Source of the DNA: a virus
Taxonomy: Duplodnaviria > Heunggongvirae > Uroviricota > Caudoviricetes
Reading direction: 5' to 3' (one strand)
Virus record (IMG/VR): IMGVR_UViG_3300018471_000116
Length of the DNA: 5,168 nucleotides
This document shows positions 1-5,168 of this stretch, in pieces. The notes below the pieces were generated by a model. That model saw nothing but the letters and a program-made list of their open reading frames with translations, searched no databases and was not told the origin of the DNA. Both the position numbers and the translations under genes were made by a program. Numbering within the stretch: the stretch's first letter is position 1; every line of letters begins with the position of its first letter.

Positions 1-14
1 CGCTCTTCCGATCT
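1..14. other. Sequencing adapter remnant (Illumina TruSeq, reverse complement of AGATCGGAAGAGCG); not biological sequence
   Basis: Positions 1-14 read CGCTCTTCCGATCT, identical to the 3' terminal 14 nt of the TruSeq universal adapter (...ACACGACGCTCTTCCGATCT). Recognised from established knowledge of adapter sequences. Confidence 0.9.
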
Positions 15-47
15 CCTAAATACTTACGCCATCTTTACCCTTACAAG

Positions 48-1166
48 TTGTGGAGAAAAAGCACATCTACACGAGATCTGAATGAGGCGAGAAGATTCAG
101 AAACCATCTGTTATTAGAATGGGAGGAACTAAAGCGGAAACATAATCCTGATAACCCCGAAAGGAGGTTACAAAAAGCTATTGAATCCTTACATTCAGAG
201 GCAAGGGCCAATAAAAACACGCAAAGAGCCGTAAAACGCGGTTATGCATCGCCTTCCCTATGCTTAATACGTGACGAATACGCCGAATGCTACAGAGAGC
301 GTCGTTCATACTCAACACTACAGAAATCAGCAAGGGCCGTTGAGCTATTTTTACAAAGCATTCAGAAAGATGATATTCATATTGAGAAAATAGGCAGACG
401 GCTTGTAACAGTATTCTTAGATGACCAGAAGCAACGAGGAGCAGCCGATCAATCTCGTCAAAACTGGCTTACATGCTTAGGATCGCTCTATGAATTTGCT
501 AAACGCCGTTATGACGGAATACCAGACAGTAACCCTTTTCACGGTCATAACCTCGAAGCACGTCGCACAATCGAGAGTTATCAACCGTTTACACCTGAAC
601 AAATGCAAAAGCTACTTGATGCAGCGGAGCCGGAGATCAGAAATATTATTTTAATGGGCTTGTTTTCAGGATGCAGATTAGACGAACTGGCAAGCCTGAA
701 AAAGTCAGAGGTTGTAACTGTGGAAGGAATACGCTGTTTTTATATCAGCAAGAGTAAGACTAAAGCAGGGATCAGACACGTTCCGATACATTCAAGACTA
801 TCGATTATTGTCGATGAATATTTAAATCATAATTATGGTGAATATTTGTTCCCTCACTCGAACAAAGTAAAAAGAATCGACGGCAAGAAAGGCCCGTTCT
901 ATTCTCAAGCATTCTCACGTTTACGTCGTAGCGTCTTGCCAATCGCTACAGATAGACAATGCTTTCACAGCTTGCGCGGGATGTTTATCACTTGTCTTGA
1001 TCGTGCCGGAGTGCCTGAACAGCGGATCGGAGCCATTACCGGACATACAGAGCAGAGAGCTAAAACAGAAGCCTTTCGCACCTACTCACAAGGGGCAAGC
1101 ATTCCAGAATTAGCTGAATATGTAGAATTAGTAAAATATGAATTAAATATTGATTTTAAGGCGTAA
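48..1166 (+). CDS. int: Tyrosine site-specific recombinase (phage-type integrase); start codon uncertain (TTG at 48, frame open back to the adapter junction at 15)
   Basis: 372-aa ORF. Catalytic-domain signature is readable in the translation: R210 in GCRLDEL (nt 675-677), K237/K239 in SKSKTKAG, H307-x-x-R310 in FHSLRG (nt 966-977), H333 in TGHT, and Y346 in AFRTYSQG (nt 1083-1085). Spacing closely parallels lambda Int (R212, K235, H308, R311, H333, Y342). No in-frame ATG occurs before residue 186 and no clear Shine-Dalgarno precedes the TTG, so the annotated start is tentative. Confidence 0.85.
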   Translation: MWRKSTSTRDLNEARRFRNHLLLEWEELKRKHNPDNPERRLQKAIESLHSEARANKNTQRAVKRGYASPSLCLIRDEYAECYRERRSYSTLQKSARAVELFLQSIQKDDIHIEKIGRRLVTVFLDDQKQRGAADQSRQNWLTCLGSLYEFAKRRYDGIPDSNPFHGHNLEARRTIESYQPFTPEQMQKLLDAAEPEIRNIILMGLFSGCRLDELASLKKSEVVTVEGIRCFYISKSKTKAGIRHVPIHSRLSIIVDEYLNHNYGEYLFPHSNKVKRIDGKKGPFYSQAFSRLRRSVLPIATDRQCFHSLRGMFITCLDRAGVPEQRIGAITGHTEQRAKTEAFRTYSQGASIPELAEYVELVKYELNIDFKA

Positions 1167-1174
1167 AAAATCAT

Positions 1175-1192
1175 AGGCGCTTCATTGCGCCT
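1175..1192. terminator. Hairpin between convergent genes; probable intrinsic terminator, mainly for the minus-strand operon
   Basis: Perfect inverted repeat AGGCGC (1175-1180) / GCGCCT (1187-1192) with 6-nt loop TTCATT. On the minus strand the stem is followed by AUGAUUUUUU (complement of 1165-1174). On the plus strand it is followed by the weaker TGTCCTATTTC. It lies in the 30-nt gap between the int stop (1164-1166) and the 218-aa ORF stop (1197-1199). Confidence 0.5.
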
Positions 1193-1196
1193 TGTC

Positions 1197-1853
1197 CTAT
1201 TTCACTTCTCCGTCATACGTCGGGAGGGTGTCTTTAGTGGTGCTGGCTGTTCCTGCATTGGTTGGCACTCGGCTTTTTACCTGTCCGCCTGTGCTCTTAG
1301 GTGATGCGGTCTTTACAGCAATAGCGTTAGTAGTTGCATAACTCACTAATCTTATCTGTTCGAACTGCAAATCAAACTGTAAAGCTGATTCTGTTTTATA
1401 TTCGTAGTCAATGCCTGTCAGAATCATATTATCAAACGTCTTATGCTCTGTGCTTACAATAATAGGCTGTCTGGCATTCATTATTTCATCAAGATAAGCA
1501 ATAGCCTGTGAACACCTGTTACCGTTCACCCCTGCACTTGATAGCATATCACCACGTAATGCTAATGGTGTTTCTGTAATAATGCCTGAAAGCATAAGTT
1601 TATTATTCTTGATCCTGACATTATCAGATACATCATTACCATCCTGCACAGGATACGATGTAACATCGGCAGAACGTGAAACCTTAGTTGCCGGAACAGC
1701 GTCAAAAGTAATAGCTTTATAACTGGCTATCGTTGATGCATTTTCGTTATTCAGGTTGCTACATATAATGGCAAATCCGTTATCAGATTTAACCTTGCTG
1801 TTAGATGTATTAATGTTAGATGTGCTGTTGATCTGACTTTCTTTGATAGCCAT
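1197..1853 (-). CDS. Hypothetical protein, 218 aa; candidate virion (distal tail / tail-tip type) protein by position only
   Basis: ATG start at 1853-1851 with an AAGGA Shine-Dalgarno about 12 nt upstream on the minus strand (complement of 1863-1867); TAG stop at 1199-1197. Ser/Thr/Asn-rich N- and C-termini and a central region rich in predicted beta-strand-like residues. Same strand as, and 73 nt downstream of, the 633-aa gene. No recognisable catalytic motif. Confidence 0.6.
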   Translation of the reverse strand: MAIKESQINSTSNINTSNSKVKSDNGFAIICSNLNNENASTIASYKAITFDAVPATKVSRSADVTSYPVQDGNDVSDNVRIKNNKLMLSGIITETPLALRGDMLSSAGVNGNRCSQAIAYLDEIMNARQPIIVSTEHKTFDNMILTGIDYEYKTESALQFDLQFEQIRLVSYATTNAIAVKTASPKSTGGQVKSRVPTNAGTASTTKDTLPTYDGEVK

Positions 1854-1875
1854 TTATATTAATCCTTGTGTAATG

Positions 1876-1904
1876 AGCGGAAAGCAATAAATATTGCCCC
1901 CGCT
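1876..1904 (-). other. Intergenic two-tier stem-loop just upstream of the ribosome-binding site of the 218-aa gene
   Basis: Outer stem AGCGG (1876-1880) / CCGCT (1900-1904); inner stem GCAAT (1884-1888) / ATTGC (1893-1897) with loop AAAT. On the plus strand it is followed by a T-rich run (1905-1920). On the minus strand (the transcribed one here) it is not followed by a U-tract and sits about 9 nt 5' of the SD. Confidence 0.3.
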
Positions 1905-1926
1905 TTATTATTAGTTATCGTTAAAC

Positions 1927-3828
1927 TTAGTTAACGCTACTCTGTCCTGACAACGTGCTAAGAATCAGATTCGAACTAAACTGATTGTTGTTCGCTCTGA
2001 TCTCAGTGCGGATTAAATCCTGAAAGCCGGGACCGTTAGGGATGACGTTAACAGAGATCATATCACTCGGCACCGTAACCTGTGCATTCACGTTAACAGG
2101 AGTTGCGTATTGACGTTGTAGGCTTACAGTCGGCTGATAGGCTTCTGCTTTACGTGCAACAAGGGTTGATCCGTAGCTGTTAGCATTGCCATTAATTAAA
2201 TCAGTCCACCACCCTGGAACGCCGGACTGTGTTTCCTCACCGCGCACAATACGCCCTACATCTTTCGTATCGAGTCCAGTTGCATAACGAATACCTTCAT
2301 TGATAATCGTTGATGGCGACCATTCCCCATCTGTAACAGCGTCCATAACCTTTTGTGTCTCAGGTCTGTTATCATTCTCACCACGGCTAAGATGTTTATT
2401 AATCCAGCTTGTGATTTGATTCCCGTAAGAAGTCATAGAGGTCAGTAATACAGCGCCTTGTTTAGCCAAATCCCCGAACGATGCACCAACACCATAAGCT
2501 GCATTCTGTAAGGCTTTGCTTTCTTCCGGTTTGAGTGCTGGCATGTTGGCTATGCCATCAAAGAAGCCCAAAATAGCCTGATTCGATAGTCCATCTGTCA
2601 GACGGTCAAAGGCTGTAGCTGTCTTGTTAGCTGCGCGATATTGCTCTTTCTGTGCTTCTGTCAGTAGCTGCCCGTTGTTTTCCATATCAACCATCGTTTT
2701 ACGGAACTCTTCCCCATCACGGGAAAACATCTTGAGATAATGGCTGGCATCGTCTGCTAATGGTTCGATCAGGGATATGATGGCTTCTTTAGTCATTCCT
2801 CGGCGTTCACCTTCTCTCACCACGTCTTGCAGGAGTTGCAGCGGTCGCCCCTGGTAGGAAGCTATCTTATCTTTGTTCCATGCAAAGGCATTCTGAATAT
2901 CATTTAATGATCCTTCCCCGCCTCGCCACTCTTTTTTCTTACTATCCCATTCAGCAGTTCGGCTTTGATGACCAATGCGTTCGTTTAAGTCTTTGATATT
3001 GTCAGTGGTCTTGTCCACGCTTGCACTTGATACACCGTTTGCCCTCCCCCAATTAACCATTGCAGCCACCTGGTTGGAGTCTGCGCCTACCAGATCGCTC
3101 ATCTTCTGCAATTCCATACGTTCACGGGCTTTTTCCATTCCAGCAGATACAGCCATACTTCCTAAGCCAACGGCAGCGCCGCCGATAATGCCACCAACAC
3201 CGCCCATCATTAACGCGCCACCGCCGCTAACACCTTCTTTGTGGAGCTTCTTAGAAGTAACTGGATATACACCCCCAGCGGCAGCATTACGACGCGTAGC
3301 AGCGGCTGCGGCTCGTCTTTCTAATGTGATGCGGTCACGGATCAGGGCATTCATCTTCGCTTGCGATATAGCGCCGGATTCATAGAGGCGGGTTTGTTCC
3401 TTAATGTAACGTAGAGCATCGTGATATTTCTTAATATCCATCCCTTCGCCATAGCGGGAATTGTTCTTGATGCCTTGTAACTGGCGATATGATGCAAGGC
3501 GCTTGATCTCTGCCTTTTCAGCAATTGAGGCTTGTTTAGCCTGTGCTTTAGCGAGGTTTTTAGCTTCCTGTAGCTTCTGTTTAGTGCTGGCTTTAGATGC
3601 CTGTGTCTCAGATTTAACAGCCCGCTTAACATGCTGATCATGCTGGCGCTGAATCTCTTTTCCCAGCCTCTGTAAATCTTTCTGACGTGCTGCCGCCACT
3701 TGCACAGGTTTGATCCCCTGCATCTTCTTTTGTAGCTTATCCACTTCATTCTTAGCTTTCTGTAAGCTCTTGAAATCAGTGGTAAATGTCACAACATTAC
3801 TAATTCGTGAGGCGGTAATTTCTAACAT
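1927..3828 (-). CDS. Large phage structural-type protein, 633 aa: coiled-coil N-terminal region plus Gly/Ala-rich hydrophobic segment; tape-measure-like (alternatively pilot/ejection-type) protein
   Basis: ATG at 3828-3826 with AGGGAAAC about 10 nt upstream on the minus strand; TAA stop at 1929-1927. Residues about 20-170 are K/Q/A/E-rich with heptad-like character (e.g. KLQEAKNLAKAQAKQASIAEKAEIKR). Residues 171-186 are poly-Ala/Arg. Residues about 200-231 (GGGALMMGGVGGIIGGAAVGLGSMAVSAGM, nt about 3136-3231) form a Gly-rich hydrophobic stretch typical of tape-measure and pilot proteins. The C-terminal about 390 aa looks globular. Product call is by architecture, not homology. Confidence 0.75.
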   Translation of the reverse strand: MLEITASRISNVVTFTTDFKSLQKAKNEVDKLQKKMQGIKPVQVAAARQKDLQRLGKEIQRQHDQHVKRAVKSETQASKASTKQKLQEAKNLAKAQAKQASIAEKAEIKRLASYRQLQGIKNNSRYGEGMDIKKYHDALRYIKEQTRLYESGAISQAKMNALIRDRITLERRAAAAATRRNAAAGGVYPVTSKKLHKEGVSGGGALMMGGVGGIIGGAAVGLGSMAVSAGMEKARERMELQKMSDLVGADSNQVAAMVNWGRANGVSSASVDKTTDNIKDLNERIGHQSRTAEWDSKKKEWRGGEGSLNDIQNAFAWNKDKIASYQGRPLQLLQDVVREGERRGMTKEAIISLIEPLADDASHYLKMFSRDGEEFRKTMVDMENNGQLLTEAQKEQYRAANKTATAFDRLTDGLSNQAILGFFDGIANMPALKPEESKALQNAAYGVGASFGDLAKQGAVLLTSMTSYGNQITSWINKHLSRGENDNRPETQKVMDAVTDGEWSPSTIINEGIRYATGLDTKDVGRIVRGEETQSGVPGWWTDLINGNANSYGSTLVARKAEAYQPTVSLQRQYATPVNVNAQVTVPSDMISVNVIPNGPGFQDLIRTEIRANNNQFSSNLILSTLSGQSSVN

Positions 3829-3852
3829 GTTAATTGTTTCCCTGTATTATGA

Positions 3853-3872
3853 TTATTGTTTGTTATTGTTTT
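3853..3872. repeat. Short AT-rich tandem direct repeat (TTATTGTTTG / TTATTGTTTT), with a third ATTGTTT copy at 3833-3839
   Basis: Read directly: 3853-3862 TTATTGTTTG and 3863-3872 TTATTGTTTT (9/10 identical). Spans the stop codon of the 65-aa ORF and the 5' leader of the 633-aa gene. Low complexity, so may be incidental. Confidence 0.3.
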
Positions 3873-4060
3873 TTAGAGCAATAATATTGGATTGCCTCAA
3901 AAGTGCTGCACCCAGTCTGAAACACACGCTGCCGCACATTATTTGCATCAATTGAAAGCATTCTGCATAAGGCACTGACATTGATTATTGAGTCATCGCT
4001 AATAGCTGCCAGTTCTTTTACAGACTTAAGAATTAATGCCTGTGAATTTTCTGTGTTCAT
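3863..4060 (-). CDS. Small hypothetical protein, 65 aa (possible small operon-leading protein; function unknown)
   Basis: ATG at 4060-4058, TAA stop at 3865-3863, same strand as flanking genes and exactly fills the gap upstream of the 633-aa gene (34-nt spacer). Weak purine-rich SD (GAGAGAAAACCA-ATG). No signal-peptide-like or strongly hydrophobic segment. Short length and weak RBS keep confidence low. Confidence 0.4.
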   Translation of the reverse strand: MNTENSQALILKSVKELAAISDDSIINVSALCRMLSIDANNVRQRVFQTGCSTFEAIQYYCSKKQ

Positions 4061-4211
4061 TGGTTTTCTCTCACATATATATTTTTATTTGGGTTTGTAG
4101 ACAGTAGAAAAACAAAAAGGGCAAAGAGATTCGTTACTGTATTTGCGCCTACAGGTTAGTTAATCCCTTTACCCTTATTGCCCCGATGGGGAATCGTCTA
4201 TTAACGCTTTA

Positions 4212-5136
4212 TTACGCAGCAGATCCGAAGATGATAGCTTGCGGAATGTTGTTTACTGGCAGATAAGATGTCTCAGTAACCACAGATGGGAATTGGAATT
4301 CATCCTTGATTAGATATTGGTGATGCAACACGGCATCTTGACCTAACTCAGCATGACGCACACCAACGCCGCTATGAAGCTGGTAACACTGTGCCGCTTT
4401 ATCCATTACCGGAACAATTGCGAAACCGTTCTCTCCGATGTGAGCAACAATCTCAGGAAACATTGACACATCAATAACAGTGATCCCACCAATCTGGAAA
4501 GAGTCATAGGCTGGGTTAGAATCAACCATACGGGTAAACAGGGCCGTAGCACTCGCATCGCCTGCATATTTCACCATGTCACTGATCAGCGGGTTAGATG
4601 ACAAACCATCAGCAGCAGTGCCAGCAGCAAAGATAATTACACCAGTTCGCTTTGCAGCAAGACCAGACCCCAGCTTTTCACTCTGTAAGCGCACCGCTTT
4701 ACGAATAGCAAGGAACGGGTTAACAGTAGTCGATGCAAAGTCGATAGCGGGTACCGTGGTTTTAGCCTGACCGTCGAGGAAGTCGAGATCACCTTGTCCG
4801 GCATATTCAGATTCAACTTTCAGGCCCAGCAGCGCGGTAATCAGATCCACTTCAACACGGTTTGCGTGTGAACGGTAATGAGCCTCAGAGAAATCATTAA
4901 CCGCTACCAGCATAGCATCAGAACGGTTTGGATATTGGCGGCTGTATTGTTCCAGGTCACGAGAAGTAACAGCGTTAATACTGCCGACGTGTTTCATCTG
5001 GAAAAGTTTGTTTGACCATTCCTGACGTTTAGAGGCGTTCCAGTCGCTTTGAGCGTAAGGCGAGGTTTCCCCAGCTACCTGCACAAACTGATCAATCAGG
5101 TCGGTAAGAAGAATGCTGTTTTCTGTATGATATTGC
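4212..5136 (-). CDS. Phage structural-type protein, 5'-truncated at the adapter junction (at least 308 real residues); major capsid or major tail/sheath candidate
   Basis: Uninterrupted minus-strand ORF from the contig edge to the TAA stop at 4214-4212. The first six residues of the six-frame translation (MCSSDL, 5153-5136) are encoded by adapter sequence, so the true N-terminus and start codon are missing. Composition is Ala/Gly/Ser/Thr/Val-rich with no P-loop or catalytic motif, consistent with a virion structural protein. Identity not resolvable without a homology or structure search. Confidence 0.7.
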
Positions 5137-5168
5137 AGATCGGAAGAGCACACGTCTGAACTCCAGTC
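5137..5168. other. Sequencing adapter (Illumina TruSeq indexed adapter / read-1 read-through sequence); not biological sequence
   Basis: Positions 5137-5168 read AGATCGGAAGAGCACACGTCTGAACTCCAGTC, the first 32 nt of the standard TruSeq adapter AGATCGGAAGAGCACACGTCTGAACTCCAGTCA. Confidence 0.95.

What the first reader, a model, noticed from the sequence alone, without database searches (positions are those of the whole stretch)
1..47. Left contig end is also adapter; the integrase start and its upstream region (likely attP/promoter) are cut off or uncertain
Positions 1-14 are the reverse complement of the adapter start. The integrase reading frame is open from the first real base (15) through the annotated TTG at 48, with no in-frame ATG until residue 186 and no clear SD. 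Either int starts at this TTG or its 5' end lies beyond the contig. Attachment sites usually lie next to int, and here that space falls off the contig.
Basis: partly seen in the sequence, partly recalled or inferred. Interest (0 to 1): 0.45.

Follow-up and report, generated by a model that had tools for sequence, protein, structure and literature searches.

The report
Adapter-capped contig end truncates integrase
The first 14 bases are leftover Illumina sequencing adapter, and the contig really begins 69 bases inside an ordinary, already-annotated E. coli integrase gene whose start codon and tRNA-Gly attachment site lie just off the contig; this is an assembly artefact, not new biology.

Summary
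Observation confirmed. Window 1-14 (CGCTCTTCCGATCT) is the 3' end of the Illumina TruSeq adapter. A matching adapter caps the other end (5137-5168). Homology to E. coli chromosomes covers only the stretch between them.

The integrase is cut off, and TTG-48 is internal codon Leu35. In complete E. coli genomes the gene encodes 406 aa and starts at a GTG (Shine-Dalgarno AGAGGA) 69 nt upstream of window base 15. Fifteen homologues, 66-99% identical and from five genera, all carry the same 23 extra N-terminal residues. Only the full-length protein passes Pfam's DUF6538 threshold.

The attachment site is also off-contig. It is a 22-nt direct repeat equal to the 3' end of tRNA-Gly(CCC) glyU, and it sits 85 nt upstream of the GTG. 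Its partner lies 12,445 bp away in glyU. Joining the two flanks reproduces an empty site found in about 3,400 genomes.

The finding itself is ordinary. One side lead is more interesting. The integrase belongs to a 12.4-kb phage-like island with a swappable integrase cassette. Its tail and capsid genes, and short stretches of near-identical DNA, match virulent phAPEC8-like phages. It may be an undescribed phage satellite.

The parts
1..14 (.). Illumina TruSeq adapter remnant (CGCTCTTCCGATCT; reverse complement AGATCGGAAGAGCG). Not biological sequence.
   Evidence: Exact 13-mer adapter core at 2-14(-), 0.01 expected by chance. Genome homology stops here.
15..1166 (+). 3' 94% of a tyrosine integrase gene: codons 24-406 plus the stop codon. 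The first 23 codons (MSIKSQAYLFKRKDGIWMFQIFV), the GTG start and the Shine-Dalgarno sequence are off-contig.
   Evidence: RefSeq CDS of 406 aa in L001 and L002 begins 69 nt upstream of window base 15. Alignment A1 of 15 homologues. Pfam hits.
15..128 (+). Truncated DUF6538 N-terminal domain, the presumed arm-DNA-binding domain. Only profile positions 16-53 of 60 remain.
   Evidence: the window fragment scores 19.6 bits, below the gathering score of 27. The full-length protein scores 37.4 bits over profile positions 1-53.
48..50 (+). TTG that a gene caller would take as the start codon. It is really internal codon Leu35.
   Evidence: this column is L/A/M/Y in the homologues and is preceded by 34 aligned, conserved residues; no Shine-Dalgarno sequence upstream.
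588..1055 (+). Catalytic domain (Pfam Phage_integrase). Candidate catalytic residues, numbered in the window fragment: R221 (nt 675), K248/K250, H318, R321, H344 and Y357 (nt 1083).
   Evidence: 48.5 bits against a cut-off of 27.1. These residues are invariant in A1. Positions.
1175..1192 (.). GC-rich hairpin AGGCGC-TTCATT-GCGCCT with T-runs on both strands. It looks like a bidirectional terminator between int and the convergent Dit-like tail gene.
   Evidence: L002 16161-16178, which is window 1175-1192.
15..1197 (.). Exchangeable integrase cassette. Sister elements integrated at thrW match the window at 99.6% only from base 1198 onward, so the boundary falls at the stop codon of the Dit-like gene.
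5137..5168 (.). Illumina TruSeq Read-1 read-through adapter (AGATCGGAAGAGCACACGTCTGAACTCCAGTC) at the right contig end. It cuts the capsid-like gene about 30 codons short.
   Evidence: The full gene encodes 343 aa in L002.

Best explanation
The left end of the window is an assembly artefact. An untrimmed short-insert read carried 14 nt of Illumina TruSeq adapter, and the assembler ended the contig in it. The right end shows the same thing with 32 nt of adapter.

Real sequence starts at base 15, which is the first base of codon 24 of a 406-aa tyrosine integrase. That protein has a DUF6538 N-terminal domain, a SAM-like core-binding domain and a catalytic domain. Its true start is a GTG 69 nt upstream, preceded by AGAGGA at a spacing of 7 nt. 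TTG-48 is an internal leucine codon.

A further 85 nt upstream lies the attachment core TGGAGCGGGCGAAGGGAATCGA, which is the last 22 nt of tRNA-Gly(CCC) glyU including the CCA. The integrase inserts a 12.4-kb phage-like island into the 3' end of glyU, next to ygeQ and the ETT2 island. Insertion regenerates the tRNA and leaves the duplicated core beside int.

Shown: the adapter identity, the truncation, the true N-terminus, the direct repeat and the occupied/empty site polymorphism. Inferred: that this integrase catalyses the insertion, that the motif GTAMCTGWTTRMGT on either side of the core is an arm-type binding site, and the mechanism of the contig break.
For: - Adapter: exact matches at both ends only. 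Genome homology is limited to 15-5136.
- Truncation: the annotated 406-aa CDS begins 69 nt upstream in L001 and L002.
- N-terminus: 15 homologues (66-99% identity; E. coli, Klebsiella, Enterobacter, Citrobacter, Cronobacter; 392-407 aa) all start 23 residues before the window's first codon, with the conserved pattern M-x-I-[KN]...YL[FY]...G-[ILV]-W-x-F-Q-[IV]-F.
- Start codon: the Klebsiella homologue has ATG at codon 1 and Val at codon 18, which excludes the internal Met18 as the start.
- Domain: DUF6538 passes its threshold only in the full-length protein.
- att site: the 22-nt exact direct repeat sits at L002 14825-14846 and 27270-27291, and the second copy is the 3' end of tRNA-Gly(CCC).
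- Empty site: 600 nt of joined flanks are found contiguous, at 100% identity in at least 12 genomes and at 80% coverage or more in 3,398 genomes.
- Generality: the core lies 86-116 nt upstream of int in all 10 fetched loci that carry a complete integrase of this clade, including a Klebsiella homologue at 70% identity and IMG/VR homologues at 65%. It is absent from the thrW-type loci.
- Copy number: the int 5' region plus its upstream 85 nt is single-copy and chromosomal in 184 complete E. coli genomes.
Against: - No raw reads were available, so the cause of the contig break is inferred, not seen.
- No sigma-70 consensus promoter was detected in the 85 nt between the core and the GTG.
- No excised attP junction was found in IMG/VR or JGI metagenome contigs. 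Present-day activity of the integrase is therefore unproven.
- Some gene callers start the protein at Met18 (P0004 and P0005). That codon is also off-contig, so the conclusion does not change.
Confidence: 0.95

Rival explanations
1. The integrase is complete in the window and starts at TTG-48 (372 aa). The open frame upstream is chance read-through.
For: TTG-48 is the first start codon after the contig edge in the open frame.
Against: There is no Shine-Dalgarno sequence upstream. All 15 homologues extend 34 conserved residues upstream of this codon, and the residue itself varies (L/A/M/Y). A start at TTG-48 would remove the first 26 of the 53 matched DUF6538 profile positions. The complete genomes annotate a 406-aa protein.
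Confidence: 0.01
2. The adapters mark genuine physical DNA ends. On this reading, a linear fragment of about 5.1 kb (for example a packaged or cleaved piece of the element) was ligated directly to adapters at fixed termini.
For: Both contig ends carry outward-facing adapters. Fixed genome termini are known to give adapter-capped contig ends; this rests on my own knowledge.
Against: Both break points lie inside conserved ORFs (int codon 24 and capsid-like codon 31). Those ORFs are contiguous in 48 complete genomes. No repeat, cos-like or pac-like feature sits at either point. The left adapter is only 14 nt long, as expected from a single read with a slightly short insert.
Confidence: 0.03
3. 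The integrase starts at the internal ATG (Met18, MFQIFVPKY...), as some automatic gene calls have it, not at the GTG.
For: P0004 and P0005 are called from this ATG. ATG is a stronger initiator than GTG.
Against: DUF6538 aligns from residue 8. Residues 1-17 are conserved down to 66% identity. The Klebsiella homologue has Val at position 18 and ATG at position 1. AGAGGA lies 7 nt before the GTG. Either way the start codon is off-contig.
Confidence: 0.08

Closest known systems
Illumina TruSeq adapter read-through contamination at contig ends
   Same: Exact adapter strings, outward-facing at both contig tips, with homology to reference genomes ending at the junctions.
   Different: Nothing differs. 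It is a textbook case.
tRNA-gene-targeting tyrosine integrases of genomic islands and satellites, such as P4 Int at leuX. The sublocation scheme for tRNA integration sites is Williams 2002, cited from my own knowledge.
   Same: The catalytic domain carries R-K-H-R-H-Y. The att core equals the 3' end of a tRNA gene, from the T-loop to the CCA. The tRNA is regenerated on insertion. int sits next to the att site.
   Different: The N-terminal domain is DUF6538 (PF20172), not the P4-type Arm-DNA-bind_3/DUF4102 domain. No solved structure is detectable by sequence. Identity to integrases in sequenced phages is 30% or less. int lies at the tRNA-distal end of the island and reads into the island.
RefSeq 'tyrosine-type recombinase/integrase' WP_137546437.1 / WP_437618152.1 and its 90% cluster (P0001, 727 members)
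   Same: 99% identical over the whole window fragment, with the same neighbours.
   Different: The window copy lacks codons 1-23 only because the contig ends there.
Phage satellites (P4-like, PICI, cfPICI, PLE, PICMI), as the possible context for the whole 12.4-kb island
   Same: Size of about 12 kb; an integrase plus a tRNA att site; a replication-initiator-like gene with iterons; no terminase or portal detected; structural genes related to those of a candidate helper phage.
   Different: The gene set fits none of the four families that SatelliteFinder targets. There is no alpA or primase as in PICIs, no P4 sid/psu/delta, and no portal, protease or terminase as in cfPICIs. Instead it carries capsid-like, tape-measure-like and Dit-like genes related to virulent phAPEC8-like myophages. 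Helper dependence is untested.

Membership tests
Illumina TruSeq adapter artefact | Exact match to the adapter sequence | tested here: met
   Window 1-14 and 5137-5168. The adapter strings themselves come from my own knowledge of Illumina's published sequences.
Illumina TruSeq adapter artefact | Located at the contig tips, facing outward, with reference homology ending at the junction | tested here: met
Illumina TruSeq adapter artefact | Supported by reads with inserts shorter than the read length at that position | not testable with these tools
   No read data were available.
Tyrosine recombinase / phage integrase (PF00589) | Catalytic-domain profile match above the curated threshold | tested here: met
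   48.5 bits against a cut-off of 27.1, for both the window fragment and the full protein. phrog_1 integrase, E = 1e-38.
Tyrosine recombinase / phage integrase (PF00589) | Catalytic residues R, K, H-x-x-R, H/W and Y | tested here: met
   R221, K248/K250, H318, R321, H344 and Y357 (fragment numbering) are invariant in 16 sequences. Their assignment to catalytic roles is by motif, not by a structural alignment.
Tyrosine recombinase / phage integrase (PF00589) | Adjacent att site: a direct repeat flanking the element, with an empty site reconstructable from the flanks | tested here: met
   Met in the reference genomes. Not present inside the window.
Tyrosine recombinase / phage integrase (PF00589) | Demonstrated recombination (excision or integration) activity | not testable with these tools
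   The only evidence is the occupied/empty polymorphism. No attP junction appears in public contigs.
DUF6538-type integrases (PF20172 N-terminal domain) | N-terminal DUF6538 match above the gathering score | tested here: met
   The full-length protein scores 37.4 bits (cut-off 27). The window fragment alone scores 19.6 bits and does not pass, because 15 profile positions are off-contig.
Phage satellite (generic) | Small integrative element that lacks a full virion and packaging gene set | tested here: met
   12,445 bp. No terminase or portal hit in Pfam or PHROGs among 17 ORFs.
Phage satellite (generic) | Induction, replication and packaging that depend on a helper phage | not testable with these tools
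   Only sequence links to phAPEC8-like phages are available.
PICI / cfPICI / P4-like (SatelliteFinder families) | Family marker genes: alpA plus pri-rep; or capsid, protease, portal and terminase; or P4 psu/delta/sid/alpha | tested here: not met
   None of these was detected in the Pfam or PHROGs scans. SatelliteFinder itself was not run.

The most novel reading that the evidence does not exclude
The truncated integrase and its off-contig glyU att site may be the swappable integration cassette of an undescribed family of 12-kb E. coli phage satellites. These would parasitise, or defend against, virulent phAPEC8-like myophages of about 150 kb (Phapecoctavirus and Justusliebigvirus).

The island carries diverged copies of that phage group's structural genes:
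- major capsid protein, 23% identity;
- tape-measure protein, 32-34% identity;
- Dit-like tail-tube initiator, 60-64% identity.

It also has 93-98% identical DNA patches in its replication/regulatory region and an 83-nt non-coding stretch shared with those phages. No terminase or portal was detected. The same cargo occurs with two different integrases, one targeting glyU and one targeting thrW.
Probability: 0.3. Interest if true: 0.65.

Novelty: already known. Interest (0 to 1): 0.12.

Why it matters
For the finding itself, the value is practical.

- The contig needs adapter trimming.
- The 372-aa TTG-started 'integrase' is a mis-call of a 406-aa protein.
- The missing 5' end, the start codon and the att site can be restored exactly from reference genomes, so nothing unusual needs explaining.

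The reconstruction does add a clean assignment. This DUF6538 integrase clade is tied to the 3' end of tRNA-Gly(CCC) across Escherichia, Klebsiella and IMG/VR homologues.

The wider context could matter more. If the 12.4-kb island is a satellite of virulent phAPEC8-like phages, it would be an E. coli counterpart to the Vibrio PLE/ICP1 system. Those phages are used in therapy cocktails, and the island is present in about 7% of complete E. coli genomes.

Tried and rejected
- Megablast of the window against 50,697 phage records found no match, so the element is not a sequenced phage.
- tblastn of the capsid-like protein against phages found no match.
- A sequence search of the PDB with the integrase found no hit at E <= 0.01.
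- An attP-specific 36-mer (right end + core + left end) had 0 matches in IMG/VR viral contigs and 0 in JGI metagenome contigs. There is thus no evidence of an excised form.
- IMG/VR loci holding the capsid-like gene are 20-58-kb provirus predictions, and by their id format most appear to come from isolate genomes. They say nothing about packaging.
- The sigma-70 promoter scan found no plus-strand hit upstream of int. Hit counts for the region were at background level.
- Rfam found only the tRNA.
- Literature searches for glyU + integrase + satellite, Phapecoctavirus/phAPEC8 + satellite, and DUF6538 turned up no description of this element or integrase. One paper only confirmed that ETT2 lies next to glyU (PMC2808357).
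- The neighbouring 408-aa integrase in L001 is unrelated to this one, so the two are not a duplicated pair.
- The idea that the window's first 14 nt are real sequence from an alternative junction was rejected: they match the adapter exactly and mirror the adapter at the other end.

Full report
**1. What is at the coordinates**

Window 1-14 reads CGCTCTTCCGATCT. From my own knowledge of Illumina's published adapter sequences, this is the last 14 nt of the TruSeq universal adapter and Read-1 primer site. Its reverse complement, AGATCGGAAGAGCG, is the beginning of what is trimmed from Read 2.

The right end of the window, 5137-5168, reads AGATCGGAAGAGCACACGTCTGAACTCCAGTC, which is the Read-1 read-through adapter. 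The shared 13-mer AGATCGGAAGAGC occurs only at 2-14 (-) and 5137-5149 (+), against 0.01 expected by chance.

The stretch 15-5136 aligns end to end at about 99% to 48 complete E. coli chromosomes. A direct comparison shows the homology stopping at the adapter junctions. One base on each side (T14 and A5137) matches the genome by chance.

- The frame is open from base 15.
- TTG-48 and ATG-603 (residue 186) are the only in-frame start codons in the first 600 nt.
- No Shine-Dalgarno sequence precedes TTG-48.

**2. The integrase is truncated, and by how much**

In strains D7 (locus L002) and Combat11I9 (locus L001), window base 15 corresponds to locus position 15001. RefSeq annotates the integrase there at 14932-16152, encoding 406 aa. 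The ORF opens with GTG at 14932, preceded by AGAGGA with a spacing of 7 nt. The window therefore lacks 69 nt, which is 23 codons (MSIKSQAYLFKRKDGIWMFQIFV).

A database search returned 286 homologues. I aligned 15 full-length ones, 66-99% identical and 392-407 aa long, from E. coli, Klebsiella, Enterobacter, Citrobacter and Cronobacter. All begin 23 residues before the window's first codon, and they share a conserved N-terminal pattern (M-x-I-[KN]..YL[FY]...G[ILV]W.FQ[IV]F). The position of TTG-48 is a variable internal residue (alignment A1).

Pfam gives independent support:

| Protein | DUF6538 profile positions | Score | Gathering score |
|---|---|---|---|
| Full-length | 1-53 | 37.4 bits | 27 |
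| Window fragment | 16-53 | 19.6 bits | 27 |

Some automatic calls start at Met18. In the Klebsiella homologue, however, codon 1 is ATG and codon 18 is Val, so codon 1 is the start. In either case the start lies off the contig.

The catalytic domain is complete in the window. Phage_integrase scores 48.5 bits, and R221, K248/K250, H318, R321, H344 and Y357 are invariant across the alignment.

**3. The attachment site**

A 22-nt exact direct repeat, TGGAGCGGGCGAAGGGAATCGA, lies at L002 14825-14846, 85 nt upstream of the GTG. A second copy lies at 27270-27291. That copy is the 3' end, including the CCA, of tRNA-Gly(CCC) glyU on the minus strand.

The two repeats are 12,445 bp apart. I joined 300 nt of left flank plus core to 300 nt of right flank. 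The joined sequence was found uninterrupted at 100% identity in at least 12 genomes, and with at least 80% coverage in 3,398 of 5,426 genomes. The element's borders are therefore exactly at the repeat, and glyU next to ygeQ is the empty attB site.

The core is absent from the window. In window terms it would lie 155-176 nt to the left of base 15.

The arrangement holds across the integrase clade. All ten fetched loci with a complete integrase of this clade have the core 86-116 nt upstream of int. This includes the Klebsiella homologue at 70% identity, which carries a 53-nt tRNA-Gly fragment, and IMG/VR homologues at 65% identity. Loci with the other integrase type have no such core.

The int 5' region and its upstream 85 nt are single-copy and chromosomal in 184 complete genomes.

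A 14-nt motif, GTAMCTGWTTRMGT, occurs exactly twice per E. coli element: once 21-34 nt before the GTG, and once 47-60 nt inside the tRNA-proximal end. In a circular attP it would flank the core at 46 and 51 nt in direct orientation. It also occurs once at the equivalent place upstream of int in Klebsiella. I read it as a candidate arm-type Int binding site or operator. This is an inference.

No sigma-70 consensus promoter was found on the plus strand in the 85-nt spacer.

**4. How the contig end arose (inferred)**

Both break points lie inside ORFs that are continuous in the reference genomes, and no repeat sits at either point. The simplest account is low coverage combined with untrimmed reads whose inserts were shorter than the read length. 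On the left the adapter overhang is only 14 nt. The assembler would then have extended into adapter sequence and stopped.

The alternative is that the adapters mark true molecular ends. It cannot be excluded without the reads, but nothing supports it.

**5. Comparison with known families**

The artefact is a standard one. The gene is an already-annotated RefSeq integrase; its 90% cluster has 727 members.

Like P4-type island integrases, it targets the 3' end of a tRNA gene. It differs from them in three ways:
- It has a DUF6538 N-terminal domain instead of a DUF4102-type domain.
- No relative with a solved structure is detectable by sequence.
- It has only distant relatives, at 30% identity or less, among sequenced phages.

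I found no literature on DUF6538 or on this element.

**6. Context noticed in passing**

The integrase belongs to a 12.4-kb phage-like island. In order, it encodes:
- int;
- a Dit-like tail protein (PF21821, 98 bits);
- a 633-aa tape-measure-like protein (phrog_16051, E = 1e-71);
- a 65-aa ORF;
- a 343-aa capsid-like protein (phrog_29, E = 1e-4; the 342-aa variant carries PF03864 Phage_cap_E);
- several small ORFs;
- a replication-initiator-like protein, with four 22-nt iterons 1.3 kb away;
- a serine invertase.

No terminase or portal was detected.

Several features link the island to virulent phAPEC8-like myophages of about 150 kb:
- The Dit-like protein is 60-64% identical to a protein of these phages, and the tape-measure-like protein is 32-34% identical to theirs. 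The two genes are adjacent in the phage.
- The capsid-like protein aligns collinearly with the phAPEC8 major head protein, at 23% identity over 178 residues (E = 7e-4).
- The non-window half of the island contains stretches 93-98% identical to genes of Mt1B1_P17 and PaulScherrer.
- An 83-nt non-coding stretch is 80% identical to an intergenic region of many of these phages.

The same cargo, including a 633-aa protein identical to the window's, also occurs with a different integrase. That one is 425-444 aa long and 33% identical, and it integrates at tRNA-Thr thrW. Homology to the window begins exactly at base 1198, the stop codon of the Dit-like gene. Window 15-1197 is therefore an exchangeable integration cassette.

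This points to a possibly undescribed satellite or defence island tied to phAPEC8-like phages. It is a lead only and has not been tested.

**7. Verdict**

The feature itself is an adapter artefact plus a truncated, already-known integrase, so its interest is low. The surrounding island deserves a separate look.

Noticed in passing
window 5137-5168 and 4212-5136 (-): The right contig end is also adapter (32 nt of TruSeq Read-1 read-through). It cuts the capsid-like gene about 30 codons short: 343 aa in L002 19200-20231. The listed 313-aa ORF 'starts' at a GTG that lies inside the adapter.
   Followed up: yes
window 1197-3828 (-); L014 (phAPEC8) 12843-15659: The Dit-like 218-aa protein is 60-64% identical, and the 633-aa tape-measure-like protein 32-34% identical, to the adjacent tail-tube-initiator and tape-measure genes of virulent phAPEC8-like myophages of about 150 kb (Phapecoctavirus, Justusliebigvirus). 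The first 45 nt of the tape-measure gene are 82% identical at the DNA level.
   Followed up: partly
L002 23293-23843 and 26267-26349 (outside the window, same island): There are patches of 93-98% DNA identity to early-region genes of Mt1B1_P17, muut, PaulScherrer and VEcB. An 83-nt non-coding stretch is 80% identical to a 1.5-kb intergenic region of many phAPEC8-like phages. These point to recent exchange with that phage group, or to a shared cis-acting site.
   Followed up: partly
window 15-1197 versus L006, L008, L009 and L010: The integrase and att site form a swappable cassette. Elements with identical cargo carry a 33%-identical 425-444-aa integrase and sit at tRNA-Thr(CGT) thrW near proBA. 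Homology to the window starts exactly at base 1198, the stop codon of the Dit-like gene.
   Followed up: yes
window 4130-5136 versus L003: The window is a mosaic. It is 99.98% identical to L003 over 14-4129, after which L003 diverges into a 342-aa Phage_cap_E capsid variant. The window's capsid-like allele matches the L002/L006 type instead.
   Followed up: partly
L002 14898-14911 and 27210-27223; L011 9967-9980: The motif GTAMCTGWTTRMGT occurs exactly twice per glyU-type element. In the reconstructed attP it flanks the att core at 46 and 51 nt. It also occurs once upstream of the Klebsiella homologue's int. It has no other matches in 29 loci. It is a candidate arm-type site or operator.
   Followed up: partly
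L002 25047-25148; 20890-21815; 24753-25705: Four 22-nt iteron-like direct repeats (GATAGGAACTCATTTCCTAGGT) lie in a 1-kb ORF-free stretch, 1.3 kb from the replication-initiator-like gene. A second ORF-free stretch of about 0.9 kb lies in the middle of the island. Rfam finds nothing in either.
   Followed up: no
L001 1-14846: In strain Combat11I9, glyU carries islands in tandem. An arsenic-resistance and ABC-three-component island, with an unrelated 408-aa tyrosine integrase, abuts the same att core from the other side. The two int genes diverge from the shared core.
   Followed up: partly
L011-L013 (Klebsiella): The 70%-identical Klebsiella integrase serves a different island of about 11 kb. 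That island also encodes a Phage_cap_E capsid protein, a 721-aa protein and a Phage_phiTE_211 protein. This integrase clade is therefore repeatedly linked to small capsid-encoding islands.
   Followed up: no
window 1175-1192: A GC-rich hairpin with T-runs on both strands lies between the convergent int and Dit-like genes. It looks like a bidirectional terminator and sits on the integrase-cassette side of the swap boundary.
   Followed up: no
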